Of a DNA stretch of 64,000 bases, positions 2,665-56,846 are shown in pieces (position 1 is the first letter of the stretch; each line of letters opens with the position of its first letter). The notes below the pieces were generated by a model, which was not told the DNA's origin, did no database searches, and was given only the letters and a program-made list of their open reading frames with translations. This DNA is from the human T2T-CHM13v2.0 reference genome, Homo sapiens. Both the position numbers and the translations under genes were made by a program. The DNA is taken from assembly GCF_009914755.1 (NCBI RefSeq), contig NC_060935.1; one strand, 5' to 3'.

Positions 2665-4060
<1,396 letters not shown>

Positions 4061-4259
4061 CTAATAAAGTATTAAATAAAATATGTTTCTACCTCTTGCT
4101 TTGACAAGCTACCTTTATAGCCCTACAAAGCCAGATTCAAATTAGAGTCCTAAGAATCTTCAAAGTTCCATGTCAGAAGGTGGCCAGGGAAAGCTGCCCT
4201 GGCTCCCAAGTGCCTGCCCATGGCCCAAAGCTTCCCTCCTCCACTTCCCACTGCCAGCT

Positions 4260-4297
4260 GGGTTAGGGTTAGCATTAGGGTTAGGGTTAGGGTTAGA
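4260..4297 (+). repeat. Short interstitial telomeric sequence, (TTAGGG)n, about 6 units with one degenerate
   Basis: gggttagggttagcattagggttagggttagggttaga. Confidence 0.85.
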
Positions 4298-5314
4298 GCC
4301 AGGAAAGAAGCTTACACAGACCCTGGAAGATTAGGAGTCTAGCCCCAAACTAGATCTATGTATGATCTTTCAGGCCTGACTGTAGGAATTACCAAGACAC
4401 ACAAGCAATTTCTTTGTGTGGCAGGCCTCGTGAGGAAAATCTGCCCTCCCCTCACCAGACTTGGTGCACAGCCAATGCATTGCAGTCTCCAAGAGATTTG
4501 CAGTCAAGGACTCACACCCTCTCCCAGCCCCTACCCCCCTGGCCCACAACCTTATGTATATCTGCATTCCTACCTTAGGTGCTTCCATTCAGAGACCTCC
4601 TCGATAGAGGGAGTGAGGGAAGGGGGACCTCTGCTGAGACACTGCTCAAGTGTGTCTGCCACAGGAGAGACTTGAAGACACTTTTCTTTAGTACTCAGAC
4701 TTTTCCACACAGAGAACTTCCCCCTCTCACTGACCCCGATCCTTTCCCCACTCCCACCCTGTCTGGGCTGATCCACCTGACCCTTCCCAGTGCTGTGCTG
4801 TTCTGCAGGGGGAGAGGGCACCTCCTTCTTTCTCTTTTTGCCTCTTGCTTACACAATAAGCAAACTGCAATAAGTGAATAAAGGCTTCCTTGTCACTTTC
4901 AGTTTGTCTCAATGTCTTAGAAATGGGAGCATAGGCTCCAGCTAGATGCTTTCCCTTTGGTTCTGCAGACTAATTTGGAAGATGTGGTCAGTGGATGGCC
5001 AGAGCAGAGTCCAGGAAAAGGAGCCCTCTCAGCAAGGCTAAGAAGGTCCACAGATGCACTCCCTTACCGCTATTATTTGACCTGTCACTGTTTCTCTACC
5101 TCTCCTCCTACCTCCAAACTAGCTAAGCCCACAACTGAAATAAAAAGTAACATTTGTCCTTCACACTACAATTTATAAAGCACATTAACACTCAATATCA
5201 ATTAATCTTACATCCTTATGACCTCATAACATTATTCCCATTTTATAGATAAGAACATTGGGGTTAAGACTTACCCAAAGGCACAAGTGAGAAATTGGCA
5301 CCCCGACCCCATAT

Positions 5315-5404
5315 CTTTTAACTATAGATTTCAAAATTCATGCTTTTTTAAACTATAGCTTTCAAAAATTCAGGCTTTTTAAACTATAAATTTCAAAATT
5401 CATG
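5315..5404. repeat. Tandem repeat, ~30 bp x3
   Basis: Unit approximately ctttttaaactatagatttcaaaattcatg, repeated three times with small variations. Confidence 0.85.
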
Positions 5405-5589
5405 CGAAATTCTACTACTCAGCCTTGCCATGCATCTCCCAGCTTTGCAGGAGGATCTAATCTGGTCTTTAAAAAGCTTCAAAAAGTTTGGGGCGGAGGA
5501 TTTTATCACTAAAAGCAGAGAGGGTATAAAAAAAACAGTCAGGGCTCAGATCTAAAACCATCATGGCAGGAAGAATAAAACACAAGGAC

Positions 5590-6059
5590 AGCAATCTCTG
5601 TCAGGGTCTTAATGCTCCATTCTCATCTCAAAACACAAAATGAGGGCCTTTAATGCACTTAAACAAATGCTAACCAAATTCCACACCAATTACTTGGAAT
5701 ATATGTTCTCAAGCCCTCAATCTTCATACCACCCCACTGAAAATACTTCATTAATGAAAGGACAATAGAAAGCCACTGGGCTTTATCTGTTCAGAGATGC
5801 AGCTTGCAGCAGCCCCGGATAAAGTCTGACCCTCCTCCAGAAAACATCCACTCAAGTTATGCCTCTCTCTAATTACCAGGATGCTTGGACAAGGGCCTAG
5901 CATTTTATTTAGAGAATCATCCCTGCTCCCAGCACAAATAAATACAAGACTGCAGCTGCAGATACTGTCTACTCAGAGCCGGCTTCCTGCAGTTACCATG
6001 TTGTCACCCTATCCTAGGATCTCATCTAGCCACCTCTGCACCCCAAGCTCAGCAGGACC
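5590..6059 (+). promoter_or_regulatory. Duplicated PANX3-like proximal promoter/5'UTR (copy A)
   Basis: Lies directly upstream of the PANX3-like ATG and aligns with 48320-48752 (cacaaaatgagggcctttaatgcacttaaacaaatgc vs cacaaaatgagagccttcaatacacttaagcaaatgc; taattaccagg; tatttagagaa). Confidence 0.6.
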
Positions 6060-6287
6060 ATGTCATTCACTCACACGGCTACAGAGAACATGCTGTCAGA
6101 TGCCCTGTTGCCTGACTAGTGACCCTGTCTCAAGGGGCTAGGCCTGGATCCACCTCCCCCAACCACCCAACCAAACCAAATGGTCAAGTTTATAGCTATA
6201 TCCCCCATCACCACCACTAAATGGCCATTTGCAGCTGCAACCTTCCCCTGCTGTTGAAGTCCCTGACATTTGGCCAGGAATTATCTG
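6060..6287 (+). pseudogene. Pannexin-3 (PANX3)-like exon 1 remnant, copy A
   Basis: From ATG 6060: MSFTHTATENMLSDALLPD**PCLKGLGLD...QMVKFIAI, then a frameshift and PLLLKSLTFGQELS-G followed by GT at 6288. Compare recalled PANX3 MSLAHTAAEYMLSDALLPDRRGPRLKGLRLELPLDRIVKFVAVGSPLLLMSLAFAQEFSSG. Confidence 0.9.
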
Positions 6288-7450
6288 GTGAATTGTCTCA
6301 GAGCAGGAAAGAATCTCACCACCTTCTACTACTCTTTCCGTAGGTTTTAGAGTAAGACAGCTCAAAGTATGAATCCCTCAGTGACTAGATTTCCTAACCC
6401 TGGGCTGGGTTGAGTTACCCAACAGGCAGATCAACTGTATGCTTAGGACACCAGCACAGTGAGTGTCTTTGAAAAGCGTTTCTAAAATTTTACAATGAAA
6501 ACAGCAACCACAACAGCAAAACTCTAAAGAGAAGCTACTTTAATTCCTGCAAATATGTAAGTTAAATAAAAACTTTTTTAGTTTGAATTTCCAGTGGGTG
6601 GCCTCTAAAGGTCTGAATCAGGCCATGCTTTGGCAAGTCACGTATCCAAGACCTCTGGACTCCCCTCCTCCCGGGAGACTGATTGCATCACCTAAGTGAC
6701 ATCATGCCTGCCACAGGATAGGTGGTGAATAATCGTCACTTCCTTTCCCTTCTTTCTCCACTTCCCTGTGTTTCTCTCTACAAACTCAAGACACGCAAAC
6801 ATAAGCAAACCCACATATCTGTCTTTTTAGGTTCCAACTCAGCAATTCCACAACCCCTATTAAAAAGAACGTGGGGCATGCGAGAATTAGGATTTCTGAT
6901 TCTCTCCCCTGCCTGTGCTGTAGACTGAAGGCACTTCCCAGGAGCATTTCCCCAGTCTCCCCACTGCCTCGTCCTTCAGCCATAAGATGGAGACAAGGGT
7001 TGCTCTCACTCAAGACTCCTTTCCTCTTTGTAGCGTCATGCCCCCACCCTCCTCTGTTTCAGAAATCTAGGCAGAAACTCTTCTACAAGTGACAGCTGTC
7101 CTAGGAAGGCACTCTGGTGCAACAAAAACAGCCCGTTGCTGACTTGCCTGGGAGTCAAGAGGAATCTTTGGGAGACAAGAGCTGTAAGACCAGAAGCCTG
7201 AGTCAGAACACTTGGCTGAACTGGGGCAAACAGCAGGTGCTGTCCCCTGCCACACTCTGCACTACTGTGGCCCAGCAGGTACCAACCCAGAAAACAGGAG
7301 CATGGCAGGAGGCAGGGAAAAAAACTGGAAGAGTAGATACACAGATAAAAAAGTGGCCTCTAGCGACTCCTAGGTGGTGGCTCTCCAAGCTCCTCCACTT
7401 CCTCCTCTGTGCTAGCTCGGGCCTGCGTCAAAGCCACATTCCTGTCCCAG

Positions 7451-7575
7451 CATCTACTCTTGCAACATCCGCTCCAAGCAGACTGCCTACACAGACAGCT
7501 CCTGTGGGTTCGCCTTGGCCACTGCAACCAGGATGAGCCAGGCTGATAAAACACGGCACCCTCTGGCTTCCCACA
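7451..7575 (+). pseudogene. PANX3-like exon 2 remnant, copy A
   Basis: After an AG at 7449-7450: IYSCNIRSKQTAYTDSSCGFAL, then shifted-frame HCNQDEPG...DK...LW. Compare recalled PANX3 SPSNFSIRQAAYVDSSCWDSLLHHKQDGPGQDKMKSLWPHK. Confidence 0.8.
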
Positions 7576-8699
7576 TTACAGCAAATAGAGGCTACCTCAC
7601 TAAGCAGAGTGAAAGAGCAACCACCACATAACATTCTTTAATCTGTAAAACTGATATTTCTCTAATCTGGGTAAAACTGTCATAGGAGAGATGATTGGGT
7701 CCAGTGACCCAAAAACTCTGTAGTCTGTAAGCCAACTTCCAGCTCTAAATTTTAATTGATTTCTGACTTTATTTTAGAAAATGTGACCTTTTTCCCCATT
7801 ATTTTTCTCCCATGAGTTTCACCCAATACCAAGAAATAGCCAAAGAAAGCATAAGAGAGAAGGAATTATTTTGTGCTTATTAAAACAAAAAACAAGTCTA
7901 TTTATTAATTTTATGAATTGTTATTTCTAACCACTTAGCAGTTTGAATGTTCAGGAAAAAAAAAAATGTCCTCCCTCTAAAACAGAGAAAAATGCTGAAT
8001 GAAAATGTTAATAACAAACATACTAACCCACCAATTGGCTTAGCTGGTCTAAAAATAAGAGATTTTAGAAGTAAAAAATAAAGACAGAAGCACAGCATCT
8101 AACAGTATAGATAAGGCTGGAGCCACTGTTTCCCTTGGAAGTGTCTGCCAGTCGTAGGAGGCCTGCAGCCTGGGTTTTGACACATGAGGGGCGAGAGATG
8201 AAGCCTGGAGCCCAGGCAGGATGGATGTAGAATTAGAGGCCACCTTACCTCCCCACAACCCTCATAAACCAACGCCAAAAGTATGTAAAGCCTGAGTGAA
8301 TGAGCCAGAAAAGAAGTGTCCCTTCAGGGAGATGGTGAGGATACAGGCTGGTCTCAACCTTGACTCTGGATGGAAAGGGAAAACAGAGAGAAAGGAAAAG
8401 CCTCTGCTTTAAGAATTCTTTACCACACCAGCATACACAGGTGCATAGACCTGGAATTTACATTACCTCTACATGACATGTAAAACCCCAAGCCAAACAT
8501 CTATTAGAAGGAAGTCCTAGATGTCATTATTTATAACTAATTAGAAGTGGGTTAAGTGCTCCAAAGGTAAGTTGAGGGTCTTACGGACTCATTAACTGGG
8601 GAAACTGAACTGACTTTCTAAGGTAAGGTACAGCCTCTCTGAAGAAGTGAAATTCAGATACCCGAAGGATAAGGAAGTGCAGTCACTATCTGGCTTCTC

Positions 8700-8730
8700 A
8701 TTGCTTCTCTGCCTTTTGGCTAAGATCAAG
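8700..8730 (+). pseudogene. 3'-truncated U2 snRNA retropseudogene (about nt 1-31)
   Basis: attgcttctctgccttttggctaagatcaag vs U2 ATCGCTTCTCGGCCTTTTGGCTAAGATCAAG (2 mismatches, both at CpGs). Flanked by at(c/t)tggcttctca direct repeats. Confidence 0.88.
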
Positions 8731-9179
8731 AGAGATTTGGCTTCTCAGTATCAGAACCCTGTTCTCACTGGGGAATCTGCCCTTGTGTGAATCTTAGTTG
8801 AAATCTTCCCACTAGTAAGACCAGACACTAGCTCTCAGACTCCTGGAATCCACAGCCCAACCACACCACCCCATCTCAGCCAATCAGATGCTCTGCATAG
8901 GTCTTGGCTTCCAAAACAAATATTATGAAGAAACCAGGGTCATAGAGAGTTCACAAAGCAAAGACAAAGACAGTGTCTTCCAGCAACCAGCTGTGGTGGT
9001 GTATGTGATATTCCGTTGCCAGTGTAACATAATTGGACTATCCCAAGACTGTGTATGATTCTAGCCATTGGTAGAAAGGTTAAATATGACCTACACTACA
9101 AGGAAAACATTAAGAGGACAAATACTCTTTGGAAAGCATTCAAAAAGAGTCCTAGTAACCATCACCACTCAAAGTCAAG

Positions 9180-9930
9180 AAGAAAATGACAAAGGTTTCA
9201 TTGCAGCAAGTTAGATAGTCTTGTTCCTCAAGGTGTTGAACAGACCGTTCATCACTGGCCCCATCTTGGTGAAGGACACTGTAATTTACACTAACCCATA
9301 GCTTCTGGAGATCTGAGGTACATGAATGTCCCTAATCCAAAAAAAGAAATAAACAGATTTATGGAATCTGGCTGAAGATTTGGACCACTGGGTTAATGAA
9401 AAATGTTGAAAAGAATGAAAACAAAATATGAAAATGATAACACAGCATGGTACACTGCTGGTTCTCATGAATACAAATCCACCTGCTTCTGACATAGGTA
9501 CTGATTCAGGCAGCCTGAAGCGGGCCTATGTTACACAAGTTAAGGCTCATGCAACTGTGATCACAAAACAGGAATTGGTCCATGTCCCTTGATGGACCAC
9601 AGCATCAGCAAATTCTATAACTTATGAACCATCTACAGAAATGAAACTTATGAAAGAGACCGGCAGGGTCATGGCCTCATAGTGATCCAAGGCCAGTGGG
9701 ATAAATATGGAGTAATCACTAATGACAAAGAAGCCAGAGGAAAAGGCTGAGTGTTTGATGTCACATAGGTGATGATGTTCTTTTCTGTCACAAAGCTTAT
9801 TGTCATTTGGGGAGAAATGACAGAGGAATAGAAGAAACCTATGAAGGAAAAGCTAAAGATATAAAGGTACATGGAGGTGTGGCAGTGGGTACATGGAGGT
9901 GTGGTGTGGTCATCCCAGTTAGGGTGACCA
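9180..9930 (-). pseudogene. Heavily decayed OR8-family olfactory receptor pseudogene lacking its N-terminus
   Basis: Minus-strand motifs HTSMYLYIFSFSFIGFFYSSVISPQM...EKNIITY; LDHYEA (MAYDRYVA equivalent); FFGLGTFMYLRSP; PVMNGLFNTLRNK. Multiple stops and frameshifts. Confidence 0.85.
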
Positions 9931-10477
9931 AAACACAGAGTAGAGAGAGGGTTGAAGCTCTGGCTCACCTGTCAACTTAGCGAAAATATATCTGAGAAAA
10001 GAATGACTAAACAACACATAGGTCAAGGAAGAAGAAATCACAGGGAAAATCGAAAAATATTTTGAATAGAAAAATAAGAAAGACACAACAGGAATCTCTC
10101 CTGAGAAAATAATCAGAAATCTAGATAAAAATTTTAACACATTCTTTCAGTAGGAGATTGCTTAATTTTTTAAAAAATTTTAACACAAAACTCATAGTTA
10201 TGGTATTATTTATATCAATTAAATGTTGGGGAGACTGACACAGTGTTAATGTTTAGCAACAGGAAAAAGCTGAAATAAAATATGACATAGCTACATGATT
10301 AATTAAGTCCATGGAAAATTACAATTCAAAAAAATATTGATAAGGAATAAAGATCACATTATAATGATAAGTTAAACAACATTTTGTAACACAGCACATA
10401 CAGGATGATCCCACTGGAAGAGACTTTCATATTCCAGACAATATTCTCCTTTCCTGTTCTCCGAATGGTGGAGTAGA

Positions 10478-22930: not shown

Positions 22931-23160
22931 ATGGCTTTTCCAAAGTCAGAGTTACTGACGACTTGCTTCAGCACAAGCAGAAAACAGCATAGAAAGAAAC
23001 ACTTTTGACTACGTTCATTTTGGTACTGTTGGTTCTTCCTCTATTCCTCTCCCCTCGCATTTCACCTTTTTCAGGGTCCCATGCACTTCCTTTTCTTCTT
23101 TAAGGTTTGGTGAGCTCATCTAATCAACCAGCTCCTCTATATGGAGGCTCCCAAATTTGT

Positions 23161-26327
<3,167 letters not shown>

Positions 26328-40740: not shown

Positions 40741-41721
40741 ATGGGGTTCTTGTCTCCCATGCATCCCTGCAGGCCTCCCACCCAGAGGAGAATGGCTGCA
40801 GGAAATCACTCTACAGTGACAGAGTTCATTCTCAAGGGTTTAACGAAGAGAGCAGACCTCCAGCTCCCCCTCTTTCTCCTCTTCCTCGGGATCTACTTGG
40901 TCACCATCGTGGGGAACCTGGGCATGATCACTCTAATTTGTCTGAACTCTCAGCTGCACACCCCCATGTACTACTTTCTCAGCAATCTGTCACTCATGGA
41001 TCTCTGCTACTCCTCCGTCATTACCCCTAAGATGCTGGTGAACTTTGTGTCAGAGAAAAACATCATCTCCTACGCAGGGTGCATGTCACAGCTCTACTTC
41101 TTCCTTGTTTTTGTCATTGCTGAGTGTTACATGCTGACAGTGATGGCCTACGACCGCTATGTTGCCATCTGCCACCCTTTGCTTTACAACATCATTATGT
41201 CTCATCACACCTGCCTGCTGCTGGTGGCTGTGGTCTACGCCATCGGACTCATTGGCTCCACAATAGAAACTGGCCTCATGTTAAAACTGCCCTATTGTGA
41301 GCACCTCATCAGTCACTACTTCTGTGACATCCTCCCTCTCATGAAGCTGTCCTGCTCTAGCACCTATGATGTTGAGATGACAGTCTTCTTTTCGGCTGGA
41401 TTCAACATCATAGTCACGAGCTTAACAGTTCTTGTTTCTTACACCTTCATTCTCTCCAGCATCCTCGGCATCAGCACCACAGAGGGGAGATCCAAAGCCT
41501 TCAGCACCTGCAGCTCCCACCTTGCAGCCGTGGGAATGTTCTATGGATCAACTGCATTCATGTACTTAAAACCCTCCACAATCAGTTCCTTGACCCAGGA
41601 GAATGTGGCCTCTGTGTTCTACACCACGGTAATCCCCATGTTGAATCCCCTAATCTACAGCCTGAGGAACAAGGAAGTAAAGGCTGCCGTGCAGAAAACG
41701 CTGAGGGGTAAACTGTTTTGA
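40741..41721 (+). CDS. OR8A1: Olfactory receptor family 8 subfamily A member 1, intact; 326 aa from the first ATG, probably 309 aa from ATG 40792
   Basis: Full 7TM OR motifs ([40 protein letters not shown]); recognised from memory as OR8A1. Confidence 0.93.
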
Positions 41722-43764: not shown

Positions 43765-46320
43765 AAGACCACATTCTGGACCATAAAACACACCTTAACT
43801 GATTTAAAGAAATAGAAATCATACAATGTCTGCTGTCTGCTCTCAGACCACAATGAAATTAAACGAGAAATCAATAACAGAAAGATAACTGAAAAATCAT
43901 TAAATATTTTGAAATTAAACAACACATTTCTAAATAGCACATGAGTCAAAGAAGAAAATCTCAAGAGAAATTTTAAAATATTTTGAATGAAACGAAAATG
44001 AAAATGCAACTAATCAAAACTTGTGGGATGCAGCAAAAGCAGAGTTTAGAGGGAAGTTTACAGCATTGAATGTTTACAGCACTGAATGTTTACAGCATTG
44101 AATGTTTACAGCATTGAATGCCTTCGCAAAGAAAACGATCTAAAATCAATCACCTAGACTTCCAACTTAAGAAACTAGGTTGGAGAATGGCAAATTAAAT
44201 CCAAAGTTAGCAGAAGAAAACAAAAAAAATTAGAGAAAAATCAATAATATTTAAAACAGAAAATCAACGGAGGAAAATCAATGAAACCAAAAGCTGATTC
44301 TTTGAAAAGATCAATAGAATTGATAAGCCTCTAGCCAGGATAACTGGTAAAAAAAAAAAAAAAAGGACACAAATTACTAGTGTCAGAAATGAAAGAAGGA
44401 CATCAGTATAGGTCCTATGAACATTTAAAAAAAGAAGAATTACTATGAACAACTCTATGCCTACAGACTTAATAACCTAGATGAAATGGACCAAATCCTG
44501 GAAAGATGTAATCTGTCAAAACTCACATAAGAAGAAATAGACAAGCTGAATAGGCCTATATCTATTAAAGAAACTGACTTAATAATTAGCAGCCTTTCAA
44601 AACAGAAAACACCAGGTTCAAATGGGTTCACTGGTGAATTCTACCAAACATTTTAAAGAAAGATATTATACCAATTCTCTACAATCTCTTCCAGAAGATT
44701 GAAGCAGAGGGAATACTTCCTAACTCATTCTTTGAGGCCAGCATCACCCTAATACCAAAATCTGACAAAAAATTTATAAGAAAGGGAAGCTACAGACCAG
44801 CATCTATCATGAACAGAGATAATAAATTCCTCAACAAAATATTAGCAAATTGAATGCAACAATGTATTCAACAACTATACACCATAACCAAGTGCAATTT
44901 ATCCCAAGTGTGTGAGGCTGGTTCAACATTTGAAAATCAATTAAGGTAATCCAAATCCACATCAACAGGCTAAAGAAGAAAAATCACATGTTGATATCAA
45001 TAGATATAGAAAAAAAATTTGACAAAATTCCTCACTCATTTATAATTTTTTAAAACTCTCAGTAAACTAGGAATACAGGGGAACTTCCTCAACTTGATAA
45101 AGAATTTTTTTAAACCTACAGCTAACATCATACTTGATAATGACAAAGTTGAAGCTTTCCCACTAAGATCAGGAGCAAAGCAAGGATGTCTCCTCTCACT
45201 GCTGTTTTCCAACATTGTACTGGACATCCTACCTAATGCAATAAGACAAGAAAAGGAAATAAAATATATACAGATTGGGAGAGAAGAAATAAAACTGTCT
45301 TTGTTCACAGACGACATGATTGTCCATTTAGAAAACTAGAAATAATTGACAAAAAAAAGAAAAACCTCCTGGAATCAATAGCATTTACAGCAAGGATGCA
45401 GCATACAAGATTAACATACAAAAGTCAATTGCTTTCTTATATGCCTGCAAATAACAATGGAATTTGAAATTTAAAACACCATGCCATTTATGTTAGAATT
45501 CCAAAAAATGAAATACATAAGTGTGAATTTAACAAAATATGTGCATGATCTAAACAAGGAAAACTACACAACTCAGATGAAAGAAATCAAATACTAAATA
45601 AATGGAGAGATATTCCATATTCATGGAAAGGAAGGCTCCATAATTCATAATTGCCAACACTTGGAAGCAACCAAGATGTCCTTCAGTAGGTGAATAATAA
45701 ATAAACTATGATATATTCAGACAATGAAATATTATTCAGTGCTAAAAAGAAATGAGCTATCAAGCCATGAAAAGACATGGAGAAATCTAAATGCATATTA
45801 CTAACCGAAAGACGTCAATCTGAAATGGCTATATACTGTATGATTCTAAGAATCTAACATTCTGGAAAGGGCAAAACTATGGAAACCATAAAAAGATCAG
45901 TGGTTGCCGAGGATTAGAGTGGGAGGGAGTGATGAATGGGTGGAGCACAGAGGATTTTTAGGGCAGTGAAAATACTCTGTATTGACTGGTATAATGTATA
46001 TATACCAGTATGTATAATGACATGGTGTATACATGTATAATGACATGGTGTATACATGTCATTATACATTGGTCTAAACCCAAAGAAGGTACAATATCAA
46101 GAGTGAACACTAATTTAAACTTTGGCCTTTGGGTGATAATAATGTGTCAACATAGGCTCATCAATTGTAGCAAATGTGCCACTCTGGTAAGGGGTGTTGA
46201 TACTGGGGAAGGTTATGTATGTGTGGAGGTAAGGGAAATATAGAAAATCTCTGTACCTTCTGCTCAATTTTTCTGTAAACCTAAAATTATCTTAAAAAGT
46301 AAATTCTATTTTTAAAAGAA
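43765..46320 (+). mobile_element. L1MB-type element: ORF2 EN/RT remnants joined by an internal deletion (~45640) to the 3' end
   Basis: ORF track peptides [28 protein letters not shown]...LFTDDMIV; L1M 3'UTR. Confidence 0.85.
44056..44119. repeat. 16-bp tandem repeat x4 within L1
   Basis: (gtttacagca[t/c]tgaat)4. Confidence 0.95.
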
Positions 46321-47050
46321 GAAGAAACAGAAATAAAAATTATTTTTCCTAGACCCACGACCCTCAGGTACATACCAGTGAACCCATCCAAGAAGCTCTG
46401 GATCAGACAGAGCTAGCCACTGAACCATTGAATAGAGAGACAGGCAAGTTCACCTTTAATAATTGTGAGGTCTTGGGAAAGACTATCTACATGTTTAAAA
46501 GTTGTAAATTAAGCTAGCAAAGTGTTAAATATTTTCCTTCCTCCTACCCTGATAGATATACCTTCATAACAAGCTAGATGTCCAGGTTCAAATTTAGAAA
46601 TCTCAGAATTCTAAGAGTTCCATGCCAGAAAGTGGTACTAGGAAAGGGCTCTTCCTGGCACCTGGCATTCTCCCCACAGACACAGCTTTCCACCTCTGCT
46701 TCCCACTCCCCATTGTGTCCCATTCCACAAGGGACCTCACATGTACACATGTATGGGCAACCTGGTATTCAAACTCTTGGTCCATACACCTGCACAAAGC
46801 AACCCCTGACTGTCCCTTTTATCTAGGGTTGAACAGCCAGTAGTGGTCTGCCTTCAGGACATTGTTCTGGGGAAGAGCCTTGTAAGCAGGTACAGGGTAT
46901 TTAGGGAGGGAATTCTGGTATCCCCAACACTACTAAGGGATGCATAGGCTCTAACTGGGCACATCCTCTTGGATCCATTCACCCCATAAGGAAGGTATAG
47001 CCAGGGGAGGGCTGAAAACAGAGACACCTTTCACAAAATCTAAGAGGAGT

Positions 47051-47351
47051 ATTATTATTATTATTATTATTATTGAGACAGAGTCTTGCCCTGTCACCCA
47101 GGCTAGAGTGCAGCAGTGCGATCTCGGCTCACTGCAACCTCTGCCCCTGGGTTCAAGTGACCCTCCTCCTCAGCCTCCAGAGTAGCTGAGATTACAGGCA
47201 CCCGCCACTGCGCCCAGCTAATTTTTGTATATTTAGTAGAGACAGGGTTTCACCATCTTGGCCAGGCTGTCTCGAACTCCTGACCTCGTGATCCTCCTGC
47301 CTTGGCTTCCCAAAGTGCTGGGATTATAGGCATGAGCCACCGCACCCAGCC
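47051..47351 (-). mobile_element. Alu (S-type) with (TAA)n tail
   Basis: Reverse Alu; flanking agtattatta repeats. Confidence 0.95.
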
Positions 47352-47577
47352 AGACAGTATTATTAAAGTGACCTTTGTCTATATGTTTGCCCATAGCTGC
47401 TTCTCTTCTCCCTAGACTGGAAAATCCACAGTTAAAATAAGATATATTTTTTGTTCCTCATATTATAGTTTATAAAGCATCTTAATACTCAGTACTAATC
47501 AATGTTCACAATCTGGTGAGATCATCAATCTACTGTTTTACAAATAAGAAAAATGGGGCTAAGTTATTTCTTCAAAT

Positions 47578-48150
47578 TGTGAACTAAACAAAGACCACCA
47601 AATAAGAATAAGTAAAGGCTATTGATTCATAACACGCAATAGCAAGGGAGTCTGCCATCATCACTTGGTAGAGACTCATAGGCAGGAAGGAAAGTTGTAA
47701 AGCTTTATAGTGAAAAAAGCAGGAGGCTTCAGGTATGCTCTAATTGGAGGTTGTTGGCACTGGGAAGCTGGAGAGAGGCTAGCTAGAAGTAGAGCACCTA
47801 TGTGATTGGTTTAAAAAGCATACTTGGCTTTCTCTGATTGCTCTCAAGGTGGAGGCAAGGGCAAAAATCAAAGAAGCTGCCAGTCATTGACCAAGTCCTG
47901 ACCATTCTGGGCCAATTGCTGCAGAGGTTGTAGTTTGGCTTCCCAGGCTGGTAGCTGCAGGGGCTGTGGGTAAGAGTTATATTTTTATATATGGTCTGGA
48001 CATTGTCTGGTTGTATATTCAGTCTCTCCAAAGTGACATAGTGAAAAACTGGTACTACTGGTACTACCATCTGTCCAGACTTTTGATCATAGCTTTGAAA
48101 GTTTTTCCACTTCTGTGCCCTGCCATGCATTCAGAGATTTTCAGAAGGAC
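47578..48150. mobile_element. Probable ERV LTR remnant, family not resolved
   Basis: TG start and LTR-like composition (ctgattg; cattgaccaagtcctgaccattc). Confidence 0.4.
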
Positions 48151-48319
48151 CCAATGTAATTGAAACAAATTACAAAAAGTCCACAGCAGGCACACAGAGA
48201 GAATGGGCTTTACCTTCAAATGCATAGCAGTTTGGGAATAGGAACCACAGTTCAGAACTAAAGCCTTCTCTGGGAAAAAGAACAAAATGCCGAAGAAGCA
48301 ATCCAAGGCAGAGTTATGG

Positions 48320-48752
48320 GGTCTCTGTTCTCATTCCCAAACCACAAAATGAGAGCCTTCAATACACTTAAGCAAATGCCATTCAAATTTCACACCAATT
48401 ACACAGGGTCCATGTAATTGGACCATATCCTTCCTTTCCCCATCACTGTGCTGGAAAGTTCTCATTTGCCACTGTTTAGAACAAAGTAAGGGAGCTCCGC
48501 TGACTTAAGGTCAGCTTAGGGTAAGTAGCCTGGCACCAGTCCCAACAGAAGTTAGACTATCCTCCAGCAAAGACCTGCTCAAGGCCAAGCCTCCGTTTAA
48601 TTACCAGGGGCCTGGCCAGTTATTTAGAGAACATCTCCTGTTCCTAGCATGGATAATTGCTCAAAGCCAGCTTCCTGAAGCTGTCGTGTCCTTTTTCTGT
48701 CTGTCCTGGCATCCCTTCAGGTTGTCTCTGCACTGCCATGCTCATCAGAATC
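48320..48752 (+). promoter_or_regulatory. Duplicated PANX3-like proximal promoter/5'UTR (copy B) with a RUNX motif
   Basis: Aligns to 5590-6059; AACCACA at 48340-48346; homeodomain-type ccaattac and ttaattacc. Confidence 0.6.
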
Positions 48753-48877
48753 TTGTTGCTTGTGCACATGGCTGCAGACCCTATGATCTCAGAAGCCCTG
48801 CTGCCAACAAAATGGGCAAGTTCATAGCTGTGGGCTTGCCGCTGCTGCTGATGTCCCTGGCCCAGGAGTTTTCCAGT
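48753..48877 (+). pseudogene. PANX3-like exon 1 remnant, copy B
   Basis: The ATG is replaced by TTG. LLLVHMAADPMISEALLP, then a deletion/frameshift, then NKMGKFIAVGLPLLLMSL--AQEFSS; compare PANX3 MSLAHTAAEYMLSDALLP...DRIVKFVAVGSPLLLMSLAFAQEFSS. Confidence 0.9.
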
Positions 48878-49280
48878 GTGTTGCTGCCACTACCCGGTGC
48901 AGCAGGGGTAGACTACACTACCTTATTCCTCTCATTGCATGGGATCTGGAGTAAGACAGCTGTGAGTATGATTCATACGCTAAGCAAGTTTCATTATTTT
49001 GGCTGGGTTGGATGTAATGAAATAAGCAGACAAACCATGCACTTAGGCACCAGAAAATCAGGGCAACAAGAAGGTTTTGGAAAACATTTTCACAATTTTC
49101 CAATTAAAGAAACTAAAAACAAACAACTTCAGTTTCAGAATATATGTACTTATTGTGTCATTTCAAATATTAATTTTTATTTTAAATTTTACATGGCTGA
49201 GGGAGATTGGGCACTGTAATGTTTTTTAAGGGCCTAGGACCCCAATGTAATCAAGACAGTTGGTCAACTAGTGAAGAGGT

Positions 49281-49723: not shown

Positions 49724-50227
49724 GCAGTTGACGCTTGAACAACGCAGGAGGAGTTGAAATGCCAACCCCCTACCCAGCCAAAACTCTGCTTGTAGCTTTG
49801 ACTCCCCAAAAGCTTAACTAGTAATAGTCTCCTTTTGACCAGAAGCCTTACCAATAACATAAACAGTCAATTAACATATTTTGTATGTTATATGTATTAT
49901 GCACTGTATTCTTACAATAAAATAAGAGAAATGCAAATACCACTAAAAAAATCATAAAGAAGAGAAAATATATTTACTATCCACTAAGTGAAAGTAAATC
50001 ATCATATAGGTCTTCACCCTCATTGTCTTCACGTTGAGTAGCCTGAGGAGGAGGAAGAAGAGGGAGGGTTGGTCTTGTTGTCTCAGGGGTGTCAGAGAAG
50101 GAAGAGGTGGAGGAGGGGGAAGGGGAGGCAAGAGAGGCAGGCACACTCCATGTAACTTTTATTGAAATAAATACATATATAAATGGATCCATGCAGTTCA
50201 AGCCCATGTTGTTTAAGGAACAAGTGT
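49724..50227. mobile_element. Tigger2-family (Tigger2a/MER28) DNA transposon
   Basis: TIRs cagttgacgcttgaacaacgc...cccatgttgtttaaggaacaagtg. Confidence 0.8.
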
Positions 50228-51234
50228 ATTTCCATTTTGAAAATAAGTAAACTGAGGTTAACAAATGTGAAATAATTATACAGCCTCTGAGGTTAGTAAG
50301 AAGCAGAGGAGATATGCAAGCACACATCTAGTAGACCTCAAAAGAGCATGCTCTCTTTTTAAGGCACCAGGCTACAATATAAGGATGTCCTTATGTTATA
50401 CTTAAGATTGGAGTTCATGTACAAATCCACATAGGCTCCACGTGAGAGGCAAACCCAGCAGGAGCATCATTCTGTGCAAACCATATGGGCTTTGCAATCA
50501 GGATGACTTAAATCCAAACTCTGACACTCATCGACTGCAAAAACAAAGAGGAGCCCCACTGGGTACTTCTGCTGAATAAAGCATTGCCAGTGTCAATCTC
50601 AAAAAAAAAAAAAAAAAAATATTGGATCCTCGTACAGGAAACCAATCTGTAAGAAGAGATGCCTGGATGGAAAAAGGAGAGGAGCTGGTTTCCTTTCTCA
50701 GCATGGACTTTGAAAGGTAGACAGGTTCAAATGCGATCTCACACAGTGAGGCAGATTATAGCCTCTGCAGCAGCAGGAGCAGAGTACGGAAACCTCTGTG
50801 GGACCCTACAAGCTGACAATGATTAAACAGTATCTCATAAGACATATTCTCTAGACATGCTCCACCTTTATTTCCCTTTCACCATCAACTAGCCTTAGGA
50901 CAGTCATGCTGGACCCTCCTAATCTTGTCTCAAGATGCACCAGAGAACAGCAAGTTTATGGTCATTTGTCCACTGTTAAGGGGAAGCAGGAGTCCTCTGA
51001 GGCCTGCATACTTGGGGGCACACAACAGAGAGAAGACGCAGGAAAGGGCAGGGATATTCTCCAGAACAGAACCTAGGATGCTTGGTGCAATCATCCCTCC
51101 CCACCCAGAATCAGCTTCAGTTCCAAATTTGAATGTTTCCGGTTTATTTTAGAAAAAATGGCTTTTTCCCTTTTTGTCCCTCTCCTCCAGAAGATTCCCC
51201 AAGTACACAGCACTGAATAAGAATGAATGAATCT

Positions 51235-51512
51235 GGCCAGGTGCGGTGGCTCACTCCTGTAATCTCAGCATTTTGGGAGGCCAACGTGGGTGGATCATGA
51301 TGTCAGGAATTCAAGACCAGCCTGGCCAAGATGGTGAAGCCCTGTCTCTACTAAAAATACAAAAATTAGCCGGGCATGGTGGTGGGTGCCTGTAATCCCA
51401 GCTACTTAGGAGGCTGAGGCAGAGAATTGCTTGAACCTGGGAGGCGGAGGTTGCAGTGAGCCGAGATCGCACCACTGCACTCCAGCCTGGGCGACTGAGC
51501 AAGACTCTGTCT

Positions 51513-51563
<51 letters not shown>
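51235..51563 (+). mobile_element. Alu (S-type) with a 50-nt pure poly-A
   Basis: Full dimer; A-run at 51514-51563. Confidence 0.95.
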
Positions 51564-51565
<2 letters not shown>

Positions 51566-52633
51566 ATAGCATGAAATATCTGTTTATTAAGACAATTATT
51601 AAAACATTCATTCATTGATAAAATAGAAAAATATTCACATAAATAGCCCTTTCTGGCTATATGATCAAAGAAAAATACCTCTCTCACCGGAGCACATACA
51701 AAAGTAGTAGATAAGTAATATTAAAGCAACTTTTTATTGAATGGTATGGTTTGTGAGACGGTAAAGGAAGTTGCTATGAAGGCAAAAAAAAAAATGGTAA
51801 GAAAGCAGGCATCTGACTATGTAAATGAAGCCTGGACTCAGTGTTCACCTAGGTGTGTCTTCCAGTCGTTGGAGTCCTTGGAAAGTCCTGAGCTTTCACA
51901 CATGAAAAGCAAGAGATGAGGCCTGGAGCCCACGCAGGACAGAGGTGGTATTAGAGGCCATGTCACCTCCCCACCACCCTTGTAAACTCATGCTGAAAGA
52001 AGGTAAACCTGAGTGAATGAACTGGAAAAGAATTGCCCCCTCAGAGAGATGGTGAGGATACAGGCTGGTCTCAGCCTTGGCTCTGGATGGAGGAGGGGGT
52101 AGAAAATGGAAAACCCTCTCCCCTGAAAATCCCTCACCAGTCTGCACTCAAATGTGTATGAACTTGGAATGTGGATGGAACAATCTCTCTGTAACTCGTA
52201 GAGCCCCATACCAAAAATATACTATAAAGAGATCCTAGATGTTATCACTTACAATGGATTAGAAGTGTGGTAAGTGCTCCAAAGGGAAGCATAGGGTTGT
52301 ACAAAAGCATTTAACTGGGGGAAACTGAACTGAGTCTTCAGGGTCAGAAATAGGCTCTCTGAGGAAGTGAAATCCAGACACCTGAAGGATAAGGGAGTGC
52401 AGTCAATATTTGGCTTCTCAGCATCAGAACCCACCTTTCTGTTAGGAGAATCTGCCTTTGTTCAAGTCTTTATTGAAATCTTCTCACTTGGCAGCTATTA
52501 AGGCCAGAGCAAGTGTCTGAATATGCCCTCTGTTGAAGGTAAGAGGAACATTCGACCTCTGCCAACTAGATGCTCCCACTCAGGACTTTACTTCTGGAGC
52601 AAGCAGTGCAGAGAAACAAAGATAATTTCAGGT

Positions 52634-53092
52634 TGCTATGGTTTGTTTGTCCCCACCAACACTCATGTTGAAATTTGATACTCATTGTGGTGGGGTTGGG
52701 CTGTGGGGTGGGAGGTGTTTGGATCACAGGGGCGGATCCCTCATGAGTGGCTCGGTGTCCTTCTACAGCAGTGAGTGAGTTCTTACTCTGGTGAGACTGG
52801 ATTAGTTCTCAAAGGAATGAATTCGTTCCCTCCGAAGTGGGTTGTTATAAGCCAGGACGGCCCTTGGGGTTTGCCTCTTTGCCTTTGTCTGCTTCCCCTT
52901 TGACCTTCTCTGCCATGTTATGACCTAGCACAAAAAGCCCTCACCAGAATCTAAGCAGATGCCAGGGCCATGCATCCCATACTGCCTAGCCTGCAGAGCT
53001 GTGAGCTCAGTAAACCTCTTTTCTGTATAAGTGATCCAGTCTGAGGTATGATTATCCATTTGTGTTACAGCAACACAAAATGGACTAAGATA
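52634..53092 (+). mobile_element. MST-type MaLR solo LTR
   Basis: tgctatggtttg...caacacaaaatggactaagata; 5-bp TSD caggt (52629-52633 and 53093-53097). Confidence 0.85.
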
Positions 53093-54590
53093 CAGGTCCA
53101 TAACGGAAAACACAAAGATGGCAACCACTAGCAACCAGCCGTGTTGTGTGGTGCTATCAGGTGGCCAGAGGCCAGGGCTACTTAAACCAATGCAGGCCTC
53201 ACTTATGGCCTTAGCTGGGATTCTGGTCACCTGGCTCCCCTGGATCCTGATTATTCCCAGATCTGGTTTCCCAGACTTCTCTAATAGTCTAGTTGCCCTG
53301 TATCTTTTCAATGCATTCCTTTCCTGCTGGAGTTCACCAGAGTCAGATTCTATTTTTTCGCAGCTAAGAGCCATCGCTGGTTATAATAGAAGCTGGCCAG
53401 ATGGTGCATCTGAGGGAAATGATAGGGAGTGAGAAAAGTGCCCAGCAGCACAGCAGCCCTCTCAGATGCCTGTGACTGCTCATCAACCCCCACCCTCCTC
53501 CTGGTAAGGTGGAAACAGCTTTTCCCTTCCTCTTCCACATCATACTCTTGCTATGTTTATTCTTGTTTTTCTCTTCCAGACTCTTTCTGTTGGTACAGTA
53601 AGGCAAAAAAAAAAAAAAAAGAAAGAAAGAAAATGAAAAAAAGCAAGAAAGAAAAAGAAAATGTACGAACAGACCAGATTCCAGAGACCAACATCCTTGG
53701 TAAAGAGTGTGGGGAAGTCTGTAGTCAATTTGCCTTACGAGAACTACATTTTAAGTGACTAACCTAAATATTAATGCCCTAATGTCAGCAAAACAACTAT
53801 AAACACACATGCTTCCAATATAGATATCTATATTTGTATCAGCTCAAATTTTACTAAGATTCTTAAAATAATTTAGTGTATTCCCAAAATTATTACTGAA
53901 ATCTAACAAAGTGAATGACATGATTACTATTTAAATGTTACACATGTGGTATAGGTAGCATTTGTATTTTAAACATTCACTGTGATAGCAGAGGACTATC
54001 TCTATGTGACACACAGGCACACACATAGATACCACACACCCTGTCTGTTAAAGTTCCTTAGGTAACCAATACGAGAGTAGCTCATTGCTCATTTGACAAG
54101 ATTTATTTTATGGTACTTTGTTTTTAAATAATTATAGCTTTGCTTTTATGACAGGTAACTGGCCATATCTTTATTTATTTTATATTCAATCTTTATTCAG
54201 AAACCATGTCCTATTTTTTGACACTGTAACTATAGAAATTCGTGGTCAGATTTATGATACAAGAAAAACTCATTGCTATGAATCCTGAATGATGAATAGA
54301 AGATGACCAGAAAAGAATGGGCGAGGGTTTTGTAGGCAGAGAAGACAACATGAAAAAAAAGATACGGAGGCACAAAAAAACCCACGTATATTTAGGGAAG
54401 GGTAGATGATATTATGGTGAAATCACTGCATGTGTGGAAGCGTGAAATAGGGGAGCTTTGGCGCAACTGTTAATTTTATGCGTCGCTTTGACTGTATCAT
54501 GTTAGATGGAAGAACGGCTTTGTTATTTCCTTTATCTGGACATTAAGTGCAAGAAAATGTGTACGGATGCTGAGTAAACAAGCGCTAAAC

Positions 54591-55104
54591 TGTGATAGCT
54601 AATTTTATGTAACAGCTTGGCTGGGCTATGAAATCCAGCTGTTTGAGCAAACATTAGTCTAGCTGTTGCTGTGGGTGTGAATTTTATCTGTGATTAACTT
54701 TTATGGTCAGTTGACTTTAAGTAAAGCAGATTATAGCAGACTATCATGTAGCAGGCTTCGTCCAATCCATTGAAGAACAAAGGGCAAAGGAGTTTCCAGA
54801 GAAGAAGGAGTTCTGCCTCGAGACTGTGACATAGAAACCCACCTGAGTTTCCAGCCTTCTGGCCTGCCCTGTGAATTTGAGATTCCAAACTACAACATCA
54901 ATTCTTACCTGAACTTCCAGGCTGTGCCTGCCCCACAAATTTCATATTTTCCAGTCCCCACAATCATGTGAGCCAATTCCATAAAACACAGGTCCCTGCA
55001 GACATACCATCCATCTATACAGTATATCTGTATAGATATATAGATAGATAGAGATACACAGATATAGGTAGGGTTCTGTTTCTCCGGAGAACCCGGACTG
55101 ATAC
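54591..55104 (+). mobile_element. MLT2-type (ERVL) solo LTR
   Basis: tgtgatagctaattttatgtaacagcttggctgggct...ttctgtttctccggagaacccggactgataca. Confidence 0.8.
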
Positions 55105-56846
55105 AAGAGGTTACAGGTGATAATTAATCATCCTCCCCTCCACACTCTGAGAATTGAGAAAGAAGAAGCCAGATAGAAAGAGATGAAGATTAGCCTAAAC
55201 ACTGATGAAGTTCATAGAAGGGCATAGCTTAGAGCTGCAGCCACAACAGGACTCCCTAATTCCGTCTGTGCTTCCCCAGATTAATTTTACAAACCTAGAC
55301 ACGAGCTGAGATGGCAACTGCAGCTCTTGTCTACGAAAGGAGAGCACTTAGAAGAGGAAGAAAGAGACTCCTGAGGACAGGGCTGTCCTAAAAAGAGAAT
55401 GCTCAGGGGGCTCAGCCATCCTTAACCCATGCTGTTTCCCAGCCTCAAGAGGCAGGAGTCACTATTCTTTCTGGGGGTTGAGTCTAGTGGGGAGAAGGAA
55501 AAGAGAAGGGGCTCCTCCCACTCTTTACCTTCCTGAGGCACAGAAGGAGTAGGTATCCCATTAAACAGGCTGGTCTGCTTTGGGTTCAGTCACAGACGGG
55601 GCAATCATTTCCCCACAGCAAGTTTCCTTCTTGTGACATGTAAAATACTTGCTTGTAAAGTTCTGCTGTAGTTCAGTACTGTGCTATCTTACTTTTGAGA
55701 TGAATTAATTTTTTTTAATGTTCTCAAAAGTAATTAAGAAACTTTAAGACACAGCTTCTACTTTTTCCCCGTTTAGCGTAGCTGTTTCTCTCTGCTAGTC
55801 AGAGTTTGGATCTGCCTCTGGGAGCCCAAGTGCAATTGGAGGGTAAATACACAAAGTGTGTCTCTCAAGTCAAGAGCAGCCAGAGACCTCTCAACCTAAC
55901 AGCCTGAGTTTTCTTTTACATATTTCAGAGTCCTCAGTAAAAATCCAGAGAAGGCTCCCTCAGTTACTTCCTAGAGTTACTATAGAAAACAAGAAATTAT
56001 GTCCTTTGAGTTTACACATGTAGCAACTTTAACAACCTCCATGTTCGATTTTGCTTCAACACTGAAAGCAATGAAAGGAGGTGCCTACCCTGTCTCCCTC
56101 CCCCATTTGGTTGATGCTAAGTGGGAATTCCTAGGCTAGATCTCTATAAAAATGGCCGAAATTCAGTAACACAATTTGTGGAGCTGGCAATTAGGCAGGG
56201 TCTTTACATTGTGCACATGACAAAGCCCTTTTCATATCGCCATCTTCAATTAAATTATATAAAATTATTCAAAGCTACTAAGATCTCTGTTTTCCTGAGT
56301 AATGGCAGGTAATGCCTTGAGAGAGCTTAAAATCAGTTGATATGGAGTAGAGAGGAAAAACTGTTCATTTGCTATTGGTTCCGGGGAGCAGTATTGTGCC
56401 CTTGAAGAACAGCAGGGAAGAGTCACACCATAAGCATGTGACGTTTTTCTTCTTTTCAGAGGTTCAAATTGGGGCATACACTCGCTGTTATTTTCAGAAA
56501 GGCAGAAGCTCTCTACACAAATGCATCATCCTTTTAGTCAGAAAACATTTAATGCCCTCATACTCTCAGCAATTCTAAGTAAAATAGGAAATAAAGAATA
56601 AATAATAGCCAGTCATTTTTTAGGTTTTCTTTAGAATATAAATTTATTGAATAATGCCTTAGTGCTTGCTAGAATTTACTTCTTAAAATAAGTATATACA
56701 TGATATATAAATATATTTGTATACTATGTATATGTGTGTAAATATATTCCCCTTATTAAGTAAAAAAGTCTTTGTAAGAAGCTGTGTCTTAAGGTTTCTT
56801 AATTACTTTGGGGAATATTTAAAAATATGTATCTCAAAAGTAACAA

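What the first reader, a model, noticed from the sequence alone, without database searches (positions are those of the whole stretch)
48753..48877. Second PANX3 exon-1 copy with different inactivating lesions
Copy B lost its ATG (TTG), carries a frameshifting deletion of roughly 15 codons between ALLP and the D/N-K-M-x-K-F segment, and lacks the 'AF' codons. Copy A kept its ATG but has tandem stops and an insertion. Non-shared lesions imply both copies decayed independently from an intact ancestor, i.e. at least three PANX3 5' ends once stood in tandem. I could not find exon 2 for copy B.
Basis: partly seen in the sequence, partly recalled or inferred. Interest (0 to 1): 0.75.

Follow-up and report, generated by a model that had tools for sequence, protein, structure and literature searches.

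The report
Decayed PANX3 5' fragments in OR8 cluster
The flagged stretch is a real but long-dead copy of the start of the pannexin-3 gene, one of four such relics carried along when a block of olfactory receptor genes was repeatedly duplicated next to the true gene.

Summary
Window 48753-48875 is a decayed PANX3 exon 1: ATG>TTG, a net 49-bp frameshifting deletion, a 6-bp loss of the 'AF' codons, and a further 3-bp deletion. It is not a retrocopy, because homology also covers the PANX3 promoter, 5'UTR and about 350 bp of intron 1 (about 48154-49241; patchy from 46484).

There are four relics plus the true gene, all on the + strand and 29-43 kb apart: D (-66.4 kb), C (-37.1 kb), A (4026-7585), B, and PANX3 (82.1 kb). 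Each sits in a repeated OR8B(-)/OR8A(+) unit.

Copies A and D also keep a decayed exon 2. Exons 3-4 were not found anywhere in the 194 kb searched.

Downstream of the relics the units are collinear with each other. They also match a relic-free block left of OR8B8, but not PANX3 intron 2 beyond weak traces. The best reading is therefore one truncated duplication (promoter plus exons 1-2) that was amplified together with the OR unit and then decayed, mostly independently in each copy.

So the lesions are independent, but the ancestor was not an intact gene. This is an ordinary, very old, unprocessed pseudogene fragment that the supplied annotation does not list. No papers were found describing it.

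The parts
48753..48875 (+). Copy B, relic of PANX3 exon 1 coding part (123 nt against 181 nt in PANX3): ATG>TTG, net 49-bp deletion, 6-bp and 3-bp deletions. GT kept at 48876-48877.
   Evidence: alignments; PDB: Pannexin-3 only; genome searches.
46484..49241 (+). Full extent of copy B homology to the PANX3 5' region. Patchy upstream blocks at 46484-47562, then a continuous promoter/5'UTR/exon 1/first ~350 bp of intron 1 block at 48154-49241.
   Evidence: P3 81608-82756 vs 48154-49241, 62% over 1204 nt, E 3e-83; upstream blocks E 2.7e-9 to 0.003..
4026..7585 (+). Copy A: PANX3 upstream region, exon 1 relic (6060-6287; ATG kept, in-frame TAG TGA, 15-bp and 38-bp insertions, 3-bp deletions), intron 1, and exon 2 relic (about 7450-7575).
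   Evidence: 70.8% over 643 nt, E 3.6e-72; 81640-83155 vs 5485-7010, E 1e-98; 83381-83796 vs 7153-7585, E 1e-6.
50227..56667 (+). Flank downstream of copy B. It is collinear with the flanks downstream of copies A, C and D and with a relic-free block left of OR8B8 (-101320..-93540), but not with PANX3 intron 2. This is the shared right side of the repeated unit.
   Evidence: B-D 50227-50600, 53210-53610, 53818-54341, 55126-55298; B-C 53807-55452; A-B 8073-8813 vs 51787-52488, 74%; left-region matches.
40792..41721 (+). OR8A1, the OR8A-type gene of the unit that carries copy B. Counterparts are OR8A3P (2290-2571) before copy A, OR8A2P before copy D, and OR8Q1P before true PANX3.
   Evidence: tblastn map; hub annotation; (OR tree).
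48509..49216 (+). 236-codon stop-free frame running through copy B (ATG at 48812 gives 135 codons). Unexplained, possibly chance.
   Evidence: 0 of 1000 local dinucleotide shuffles reach 236.

Best explanation
Copy B is a non-functional, unprocessed pseudogene fragment of PANX3. An ancient tandem segmental duplication had its right breakpoint inside PANX3 intron 2. It copied an OR8B(-)/OR8A(+) block together with the PANX3 promoter, exon 1, intron 1 and exon 2. That truncated copy could never make a pannexin.

Later unequal crossing-over between the roughly 30-43-kb units multiplied the block, and the relic with it. This gave four relics (D, C, A, B) upstream of the one complete gene. Each relic then decayed neutrally, mostly on its own.

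Shown here: the homology, the truncation, the periodic arrangement, the collinear flanks and the lesions. Inferred: the single origin, the unequal crossing-over mechanism, the age (order of 100 million years or more) and the lack of function.
For: 1. The duplication is genomic, not a retrocopy: homology covers promoter, 5'UTR, exon 1 and intron 1 in all copies.

2. In the 224 kb examined there are exactly four extra places with PANX3 5' homology. All are on the + strand, at -66.4, -37.1, 4.0-7.6 and 46.5-49.2 kb, with PANX3 at 82.1 kb.

3. The OR arrangement repeats: B8(-) | A2P(+) D | B9P(-) | C | B10P(-) | A3P(+) A | B12(-) | A1(+) B | Q1P(+) PANX3.

4. Exon 2 relics are present in A and D:
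- blastn E 1e-6 (A) and 3.3e-25 (D)
- tblastn E 0.011 and 3.4e-5 for D, 0.82 for A
- alignment
The 123-aa ORF holding exon 3 has no hit other than itself. The 226-aa ORF holding exon 4 has only one, at E 0.47.

5. The flanks after the relics are collinear among B, C and D, and between A and B. They also match a block at -101320..-93540 that has no relic in front of it, which is the expected left end of a tandem array. They do not match PANX3 intron 2 at E<1e-4.

6. The ML tree is (PANX3,(A,B)82,(C,D)100). The neighbouring OR8B9P and OR8B10P are sisters at 100%, matching C-D.

7. Shared derived characters:
- A and B share a 3-bp deletion at the exon-1 end; PANX1 has the PANX3 length there.
- C and D share a 1-bp deletion in exon 1.
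- A and D both read CACATTA where PANX3 has CACAAG|GTAA at the exon-2 donor.

8. Divergence is deep: K2P 0.33-0.56 upstream and ML tip lengths 0.17-0.30.
Against: - The common stem of the four relics is very short. Among exon-1 sites where PANX1 = PANX3, only 2 carry the same derived base in A, C and D, and 1 differs in all four. The tree is close to a trifurcation. With only PANX3 as reference, the tree cannot show that the relics form one clade.
- The apparent shared 1-bp deletion in exon 2 of A and D moves with alignment parameters: in D it is placed elsewhere in 3 of 3 pairwise settings.
- The OR tree pairs OR8A1 with OR8A2P (87%) rather than with OR8A3P. It places OR8Q1P outside the OR8A genes with only 52% support.
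- Weak collinear hits reach PANX3 84328 (D, E 5e-4) and 84191 (B, E 0.004). The breakpoint is therefore not pinned down, and part of the 'flank' could be old intron 2.
- Crossing-over between a relic and the true gene could have made chimeric copies.
Confidence: 0.7

Rival explanations
1. One reading: each relic was copied separately from an intact PANX3 5' end. This would happen through serial duplications at the PANX3-proximal end of the array, or through crossing-over between a relic and the true gene. Each copy then decayed independently.
For: - Disabling lesions in exon 1 differ among A, B, C and D.
- Few substitutions are shared by all relics.
- The tree is a near-trifurcation.
- B's exon part is the closest to PANX3, at 77%.
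Against: - All copies show the same truncation pattern and collinear downstream flanks.
- The (A,B) and (C,D) pairs are not a ladder ordered by distance from PANX3.
- A and B share a 3-bp deletion and flank indels.
Confidence: 0.18
2. The copies were once complete, possibly functional PANX3 paralogues. Each later lost exons 3-4 (and exon 2 in B and C) by deletion.
For: - Exon parts are somewhat better kept than flanks even between relics: A-B 71.5% in the exon against 62.7% upstream, and C-D 76.3% against 73.5%.
- B and C have clearly lost exon 2 by deletion.
Against: - The ORFs holding exons 3 and 4 have no significant match elsewhere in the 194 kb: none for exon 3, best E 0.47 for exon 4.
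- No PANX3 intron-2 distal sequence was found either.
- Four parallel losses of the same part would be needed.
- The exon-versus-flank difference rests on 123-175 sites.
Confidence: 0.07
3. The relic has been put to a new use, as a promoter, a non-coding transcript or a small protein. This does not exclude the origin given above.
For: - A 236-codon open frame crosses copy B: 0 of 1000 local shuffles and 0 of 40 whole-window shuffles reach it.
- The TATA-like TTATTTAGAGAA is identical in 4 of 5 copies.
Against: - Five-way conservation peaks only reach the 95th percentile of column shuffles.
- No gene is annotated there in the hub table.
- The open frame was found post hoc, and for most of its length it is not the PANX3 frame.
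- No expression or cross-species data are available here.
Confidence: 0.04
4. Chance similarity or a processed retrocopy.
For: None.
Against: - E-values down to 1e-83 locally and 2.5e-24 genome-wide.
- Promoter and intron are included, and the relic has the same orientation and neighbourhood as the parent gene.
Confidence: 0.01

Closest known systems
Unprocessed (duplicated) pseudogene fragments made by partial tandem gene duplication
   Same: A genomic copy that includes promoter and intron, is truncated at a duplication breakpoint, carries frameshifts, stops and start-codon loss, and lies beside the parent gene in the same orientation.
   Different: It is very old (about 35% raw divergence). 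It is present as four serial copies because it was a passenger in an amplifying OR unit. It is not listed in the RefSeq table supplied for the window.
Tandem expansion of mammalian olfactory receptor clusters by unequal crossing-over. General knowledge; compare PMC1794568, of which only the search listing and the start of the abstract were seen.
   Same: Repeated units of tens of kb holding OR8A- and OR8B-type genes in fixed order and orientation.
   Different: Here a fragment of a non-OR neighbour marks each unit. It gives a fixed landmark for the unit boundary and a neutral clock for the order of duplications.
PANX3 (pannexin-3), the parent gene, and its paralogues PANX1 and PANX2
   Same: The exon 1 relic still encodes a recognisable TM1 segment (KFIAVGLPLLLMSLAQEFSS), which matches PANX3 residues 37-60.
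   Different: It has no start codon, is frameshifted, and has no exons 2-4. It cannot encode a channel subunit.

Membership tests
Unprocessed pseudogene fragment of PANX3 | Significant homology to parent coding exon(s) | tested here: met
   The PDB search hits Pannexin-3 only.
Unprocessed pseudogene fragment of PANX3 | Homology continues into promoter and intron (not a retrocopy) | tested here: met
   48154-49241 aligns to PANX3 81608-82756, across the TSS and 355 bp of intron 1.
Unprocessed pseudogene fragment of PANX3 | Disabling lesions; no complete reading frame | tested here: met
   ATG>TTG, a 49-bp frameshifting deletion, and 6-bp and 3-bp deletions.
Unprocessed pseudogene fragment of PANX3 | Rest of the gene absent (fragment) | tested here: met
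   No exon 2 near B. The ORFs holding exons 3 and 4 have no match below E 0.47 elsewhere in the 194 kb.
Unprocessed pseudogene fragment of PANX3 | No expression or function | not testable with these tools
   No transcript or cross-species data. No gene in the hub annotation at this place.
Pannexin/innexin protein family (Pfam PF00876) | Match to the family profile | tested here: inconclusive
   No Pfam hit for the B frame, but the true PANX3 exon 1 gives none either. The genome-wide PF00876 search found only a PANX2 exon.
Unit of a tandem segmental duplication array | Same orientation, regular spacing, and collinear order of landmarks in each unit | tested here: met
   Spacings of about 29, 42, 43 and 33 kb between successive copies. 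OR order. Collinear flanks.
Unit of a tandem segmental duplication array | Left end of array holds the post-junction sequence without the passenger fragment | tested here: met
   -101320..-93540 matches the flanks of A, B, C and D. No PANX3 homology there.

The most novel reading that the evidence does not exclude
The relic is not inert. Copy B keeps a TATA-like box, a Runx-like AACCACA site and a statistically unusual 236-codon open frame. Within that frame, a 135-codon ATG ORF starts with the pannexin TM1 helix. It could be transcribed inside the OR8 cluster and give a small membrane peptide or a regulatory RNA.
Probability: 0.03. Interest if true: 0.5.

Novelty: new member of a known kind. 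Interest (0 to 1): 0.25.

Why it matters
The biological weight is modest. The four relics are neutral, single-origin landmarks that mark the unit and the order of duplications by which the OR8A/OR8B part of the 11q24 olfactory cluster grew against PANX3. They also place the right breakpoint of the founding duplication in PANX3 intron 2.

They are absent from the supplied annotation. They could mislead exon-level homology searches or variant mapping for PANX3 exon 1.

They preserve some ancestral states. For example, ATG (Met) appears where human PANX3 now has ATA (Ile-37); all relics except D share this with PANX1.

Nothing suggests a new kind of element.

Tried and rejected
- The Pfam Innexin profile is too insensitive for single exons. 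It missed true PANX3 exon 1, and genome-wide it found only a PANX2 exon. Its silence on B therefore says nothing.
- The genome-wide protein search with exon 2 found PANX3, PANX1 and PANX2 but not the A and D relics. Those needed local DNA searches.
- A shared 1-bp deletion in exon 2 of A and D, seen in the MAFFT alignment, did not hold for D under three pairwise settings. I dropped it as evidence.
- Rooting with PANX1 on exon 1 had little power.
- Promoter 'footprints' shared by all five copies were not beyond shuffles.
- A first run of the left-region comparison returned nothing because of my own indexing slip. It was corrected.
- The collinear match 44532-45293 vs 77262-78021 also hits repeat-masked places in the window, so I do not count it as unit homology.
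- Literature: 0 papers hold PANX3 + pseudogene + olfactory receptor. The 1 paper holding PANX3 + OR8A1 is a breast-cancer homozygosity study. Nothing relevant appeared among the listed papers.

Full report
**What is at the coordinates.**
Window 48753-48877 reads TTGTTGCTTGTGCACATGGCTGCAGAC...CCCAGGAGTTTTCCAGT. Two frames together spell a broken PANX3 N-terminus. They are LLVHMAADPMISEALLP in one frame and NKMGKFIAVGLPLLLMSLAQEFSS in another. The second peptide hits only Pannexin-3 chains in the PDB: 4 of 4 distinct sequences at E<=10, best E 0.026, residues 37-60.

I read the true gene from the same assembly. The ATG is at extended-window 82221 and exon 1 ends at 82401, followed by GTAAGT.

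A genome-wide search with 261 nt of copy B returned three matches: itself and two pieces of PANX3 exon 1 (72% and 78% identity, E 1.9e-11 and 3.3e-8).

**The lesions in copy B.**
Alignments show five things relative to PANX3:
- ATG>TTG at 48753-48755.
- A net 49-bp deletion between CTGCTGCC and AAAATGG. This is frameshifting.
- A 6-bp deletion of the Ala-Phe codons.
- A further 3-bp deletion in the Phe-Ser-Ser codons.
- A retained GT at the donor position.

**It is a genomic copy, not a retrocopy.**
Homology runs from about 600 bp upstream of the ATG to about 355 bp into intron 1. It passes through a TATA-like TTATTTAGAGAA that lies 20-30 bp before the annotated PANX3 start. In detail, 48154-49241 matches PANX3 81608-82756 at 62% over 1204 nt, E 3e-83. 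Patchy collinear blocks reach back to 46484.

A genome search with 1077 nt of the PANX3 5' region gave 18 matches. Seven lie in this cluster: PANX3 itself, copy A, copy B in two pieces, a copy C at window -36768..-36138, and a copy D at -66069..-65074 in two pieces. The other 11 are 30-50-nt matches to the intron's poly-A run.

The 60-residue exon-1 peptide found PANX3, PANX1, C, A (with 1 TGA and 1 TAG inside), PANX2 and B.

A sensitive local search of 224 kb (-130 kb to +94 kb) found PANX3 5' homology at exactly these four extra places and nowhere else. All are on the + strand. Successive copies are about 29, 42, 43 and 33 kb apart.

**The repeated unit.**
tblastn with OR8A1 gives this order:

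OR8B8(-) | OR8A2P(+) D | OR8B9P(-) | C | OR8B10P(-) | OR8A3P(+) A | OR8B3-like(-), OR8B12(-) | OR8A1(+) B | OR8Q1P(+) PANX3

So each relic sits at the same place in an OR8B(-)/OR8A(+) unit.

**How much of PANX3 was copied.**
Exon 2 lies at 83644-83786. I found it by motif and confirmed it by the open exon 1+2 translation.

Copies A and D keep a decayed exon 2:
- Copy A, about 7450-7575: blastn 83381-83796 vs 7153-7585, E 1e-6; tblastn E 0.82.
- Copy D, -63552..-63418: blastn 83010-83764 vs -64212..-63437, E 3.3e-25; tblastn E 0.011 and 3.4e-5.

A profile built from these sequences finds nothing credible near B or C. The single hit, E 0.12, lies in an Alu.

I searched 119 ORF peptides of the PANX3 gene against 194 kb. 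The 123-aa ORF holding exon 3 had no hit other than itself, and the 226-aa ORF holding exon 4 had only one, at E 0.47.

Weak collinear hits suggest that intron-2 homology reaches 84328 in D (E 5e-4) and perhaps 84191 in B (E 0.004). The founding right breakpoint therefore lies in intron 2, between about 84.3 kb and exon 3. I cannot place it more exactly.

**Shared flanks.**
Downstream of the relics the units are collinear with one another:
- B-D: four blocks, E 6e-14 to 1.4e-34.
- B-C: three non-Alu blocks (53807-55452), E 7e-15 to 1e-21.
- C-D: many blocks.
- A-B: 8073-8700 vs 51787-52420, 74%, E 2e-116.

PANX3 82400-88000 matches them only through Alus.

The same flank blocks recur in order at -101320..-93540, left of OR8B8. 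No PANX3 relic precedes them there. This is the pattern expected of a tandem array [x-OR8B-OR8A-P'] repeated and ending in the complete gene, where x at the far left is the original left boundary.

**Relationships and age.**
The ML tree on 985 columns is (PANX3:0.17,(A:0.30,B:0.25)82:0.04,(C:0.20,D:0.17)100:0.13). OR8B9P and OR8B10P, which follow D and C, are sisters at 100%. The last duplication therefore copied relic plus flank plus OR8B together.

Upstream K2P distances are 0.33 (C-D) to 0.56 (A-C). The usual estimate for the human branch since the human-mouse ancestor is about 0.15 substitutions per neutral site (recalled, not from a call). On that basis the relics predate that split, by inference by a wide margin. 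The short PANX3 branch fits constraint on the live promoter and exon.

**One dead ancestor or several?**
Evidence for a single truncated founder:
- The same truncation in every copy, the same position in the unit, and the collinear flanks.
- A and B share a 3-bp deletion at the exon-1 end. PANX1 (LAFAQEISIG) shows that the PANX3 length is ancestral. A and B also share 8-bp and 12-bp flank indels.
- C and D share a 1-bp deletion in exon 1.
- A and D both have CACATTA in place of CACAAG|GTAA at the exon-2 donor.

Evidence against a long shared history:
- Among exon-1 sites where PANX1 = PANX3, the shared-derived counts are CD 7, AC 4, ACD 2, AB 2, AD 1 and BD 1 with the same derived base. One site differs in all four.
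- The tree is nearly a trifurcation.
- The MAFFT-suggested shared 1-bp deletion in exon 2 did not survive pairwise re-alignment for D.
- The OR tree pairs OR8A1 with OR8A2P (87%) and puts OR8Q1P outside the OR8A genes at only 52%.

My reading is that the founding copy was truncated and hence dead as a gene.

**Function.**
Nothing indicates any.
- Five-way conservation peaks (20 of 30 identical at PANX3 81775-81804 and 82061-82092) only equal the 95th percentile of column shuffles.
- One oddity remains. A 236-codon stop-free frame (48509-49216) crosses copy B, and no dinucleotide shuffle of the local 2 kb reaches that length (0 of 1000, maximum 220). No whole-window shuffle reaches it either (0 of 40).
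- That frame was found post hoc, and for most of its length it is not the PANX3 frame.

**Literature.**
- No paper in the held library combines PANX3, pseudogene and olfactory receptor.
- PANX3 + OR8A1 gives one unrelated paper.
- The listed papers show nothing on this.
- I saw search listings and abstract starts only, and no paper was read. Annotation tracks outside the supplied RefSeq table could not be checked.

**Verdict.**
The object is an ordinary, very old, unannotated unprocessed pseudogene fragment. It is useful mainly as a marker of how this OR cluster expanded.

Noticed in passing
window 48509-49216 (+): A 236-codon stop-free frame runs through copy B, with a 135-codon ATG ORF from 48812 that begins with the pannexin TM1 relic. 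No local dinucleotide shuffle (0 of 1000) and no whole-window shuffle (0 of 40) reaches this length.
   Followed up: partly
outside the window: -66422..-63403 (copy D) and -37087..-36111 (copy C); loci L009-L011: Two further PANX3 5' relics. D has ATG kept, an exon 2 relic, and a ~300-bp insertion in the promoter relic (-65684..-65381) that looks like a DNA-transposon end (recalled, not tested). C has ATG>ATA, no exon 2, and no OR8A gene detected upstream of it.
   Followed up: partly
PANX3 exon 1, ext-window 82328-82330 (L005 8328-8330): Human PANX3 has ATA (Ile-37) where PANX1 and relics A, B and C have ATG (D has ACG). The relics preserve the ancestral Met codon, so the change happened in the live gene after the duplications.
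   Followed up: partly
window 8073-8813 and 51787-52488: This is the best-kept block between units A and B, at 74% over 641 nt, clearly better than the relics themselves (about 60-63%). A weak counterpart lies at -99327..-99159. Whether it is constrained or a later conversion was not examined.
   Followed up: no
window 9214-9990 (-) LOC100421985: In unit A the OR8B-type pseudogene lies only about 1.6 kb after the exon-2 relic, against 15-23 kb in units D and C. Unit A has therefore lost most of its post-relic flank.
   Followed up: no
window 23411-25544, both strands: Long open frames of 460 and 314 codons lie inside the stretch masked as repeats (23149-26316). This is presumably a retroelement with near-intact ORFs. 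Copies at -41.4 kb and -23.7 kb are 97% identical to parts of it.
   Followed up: no
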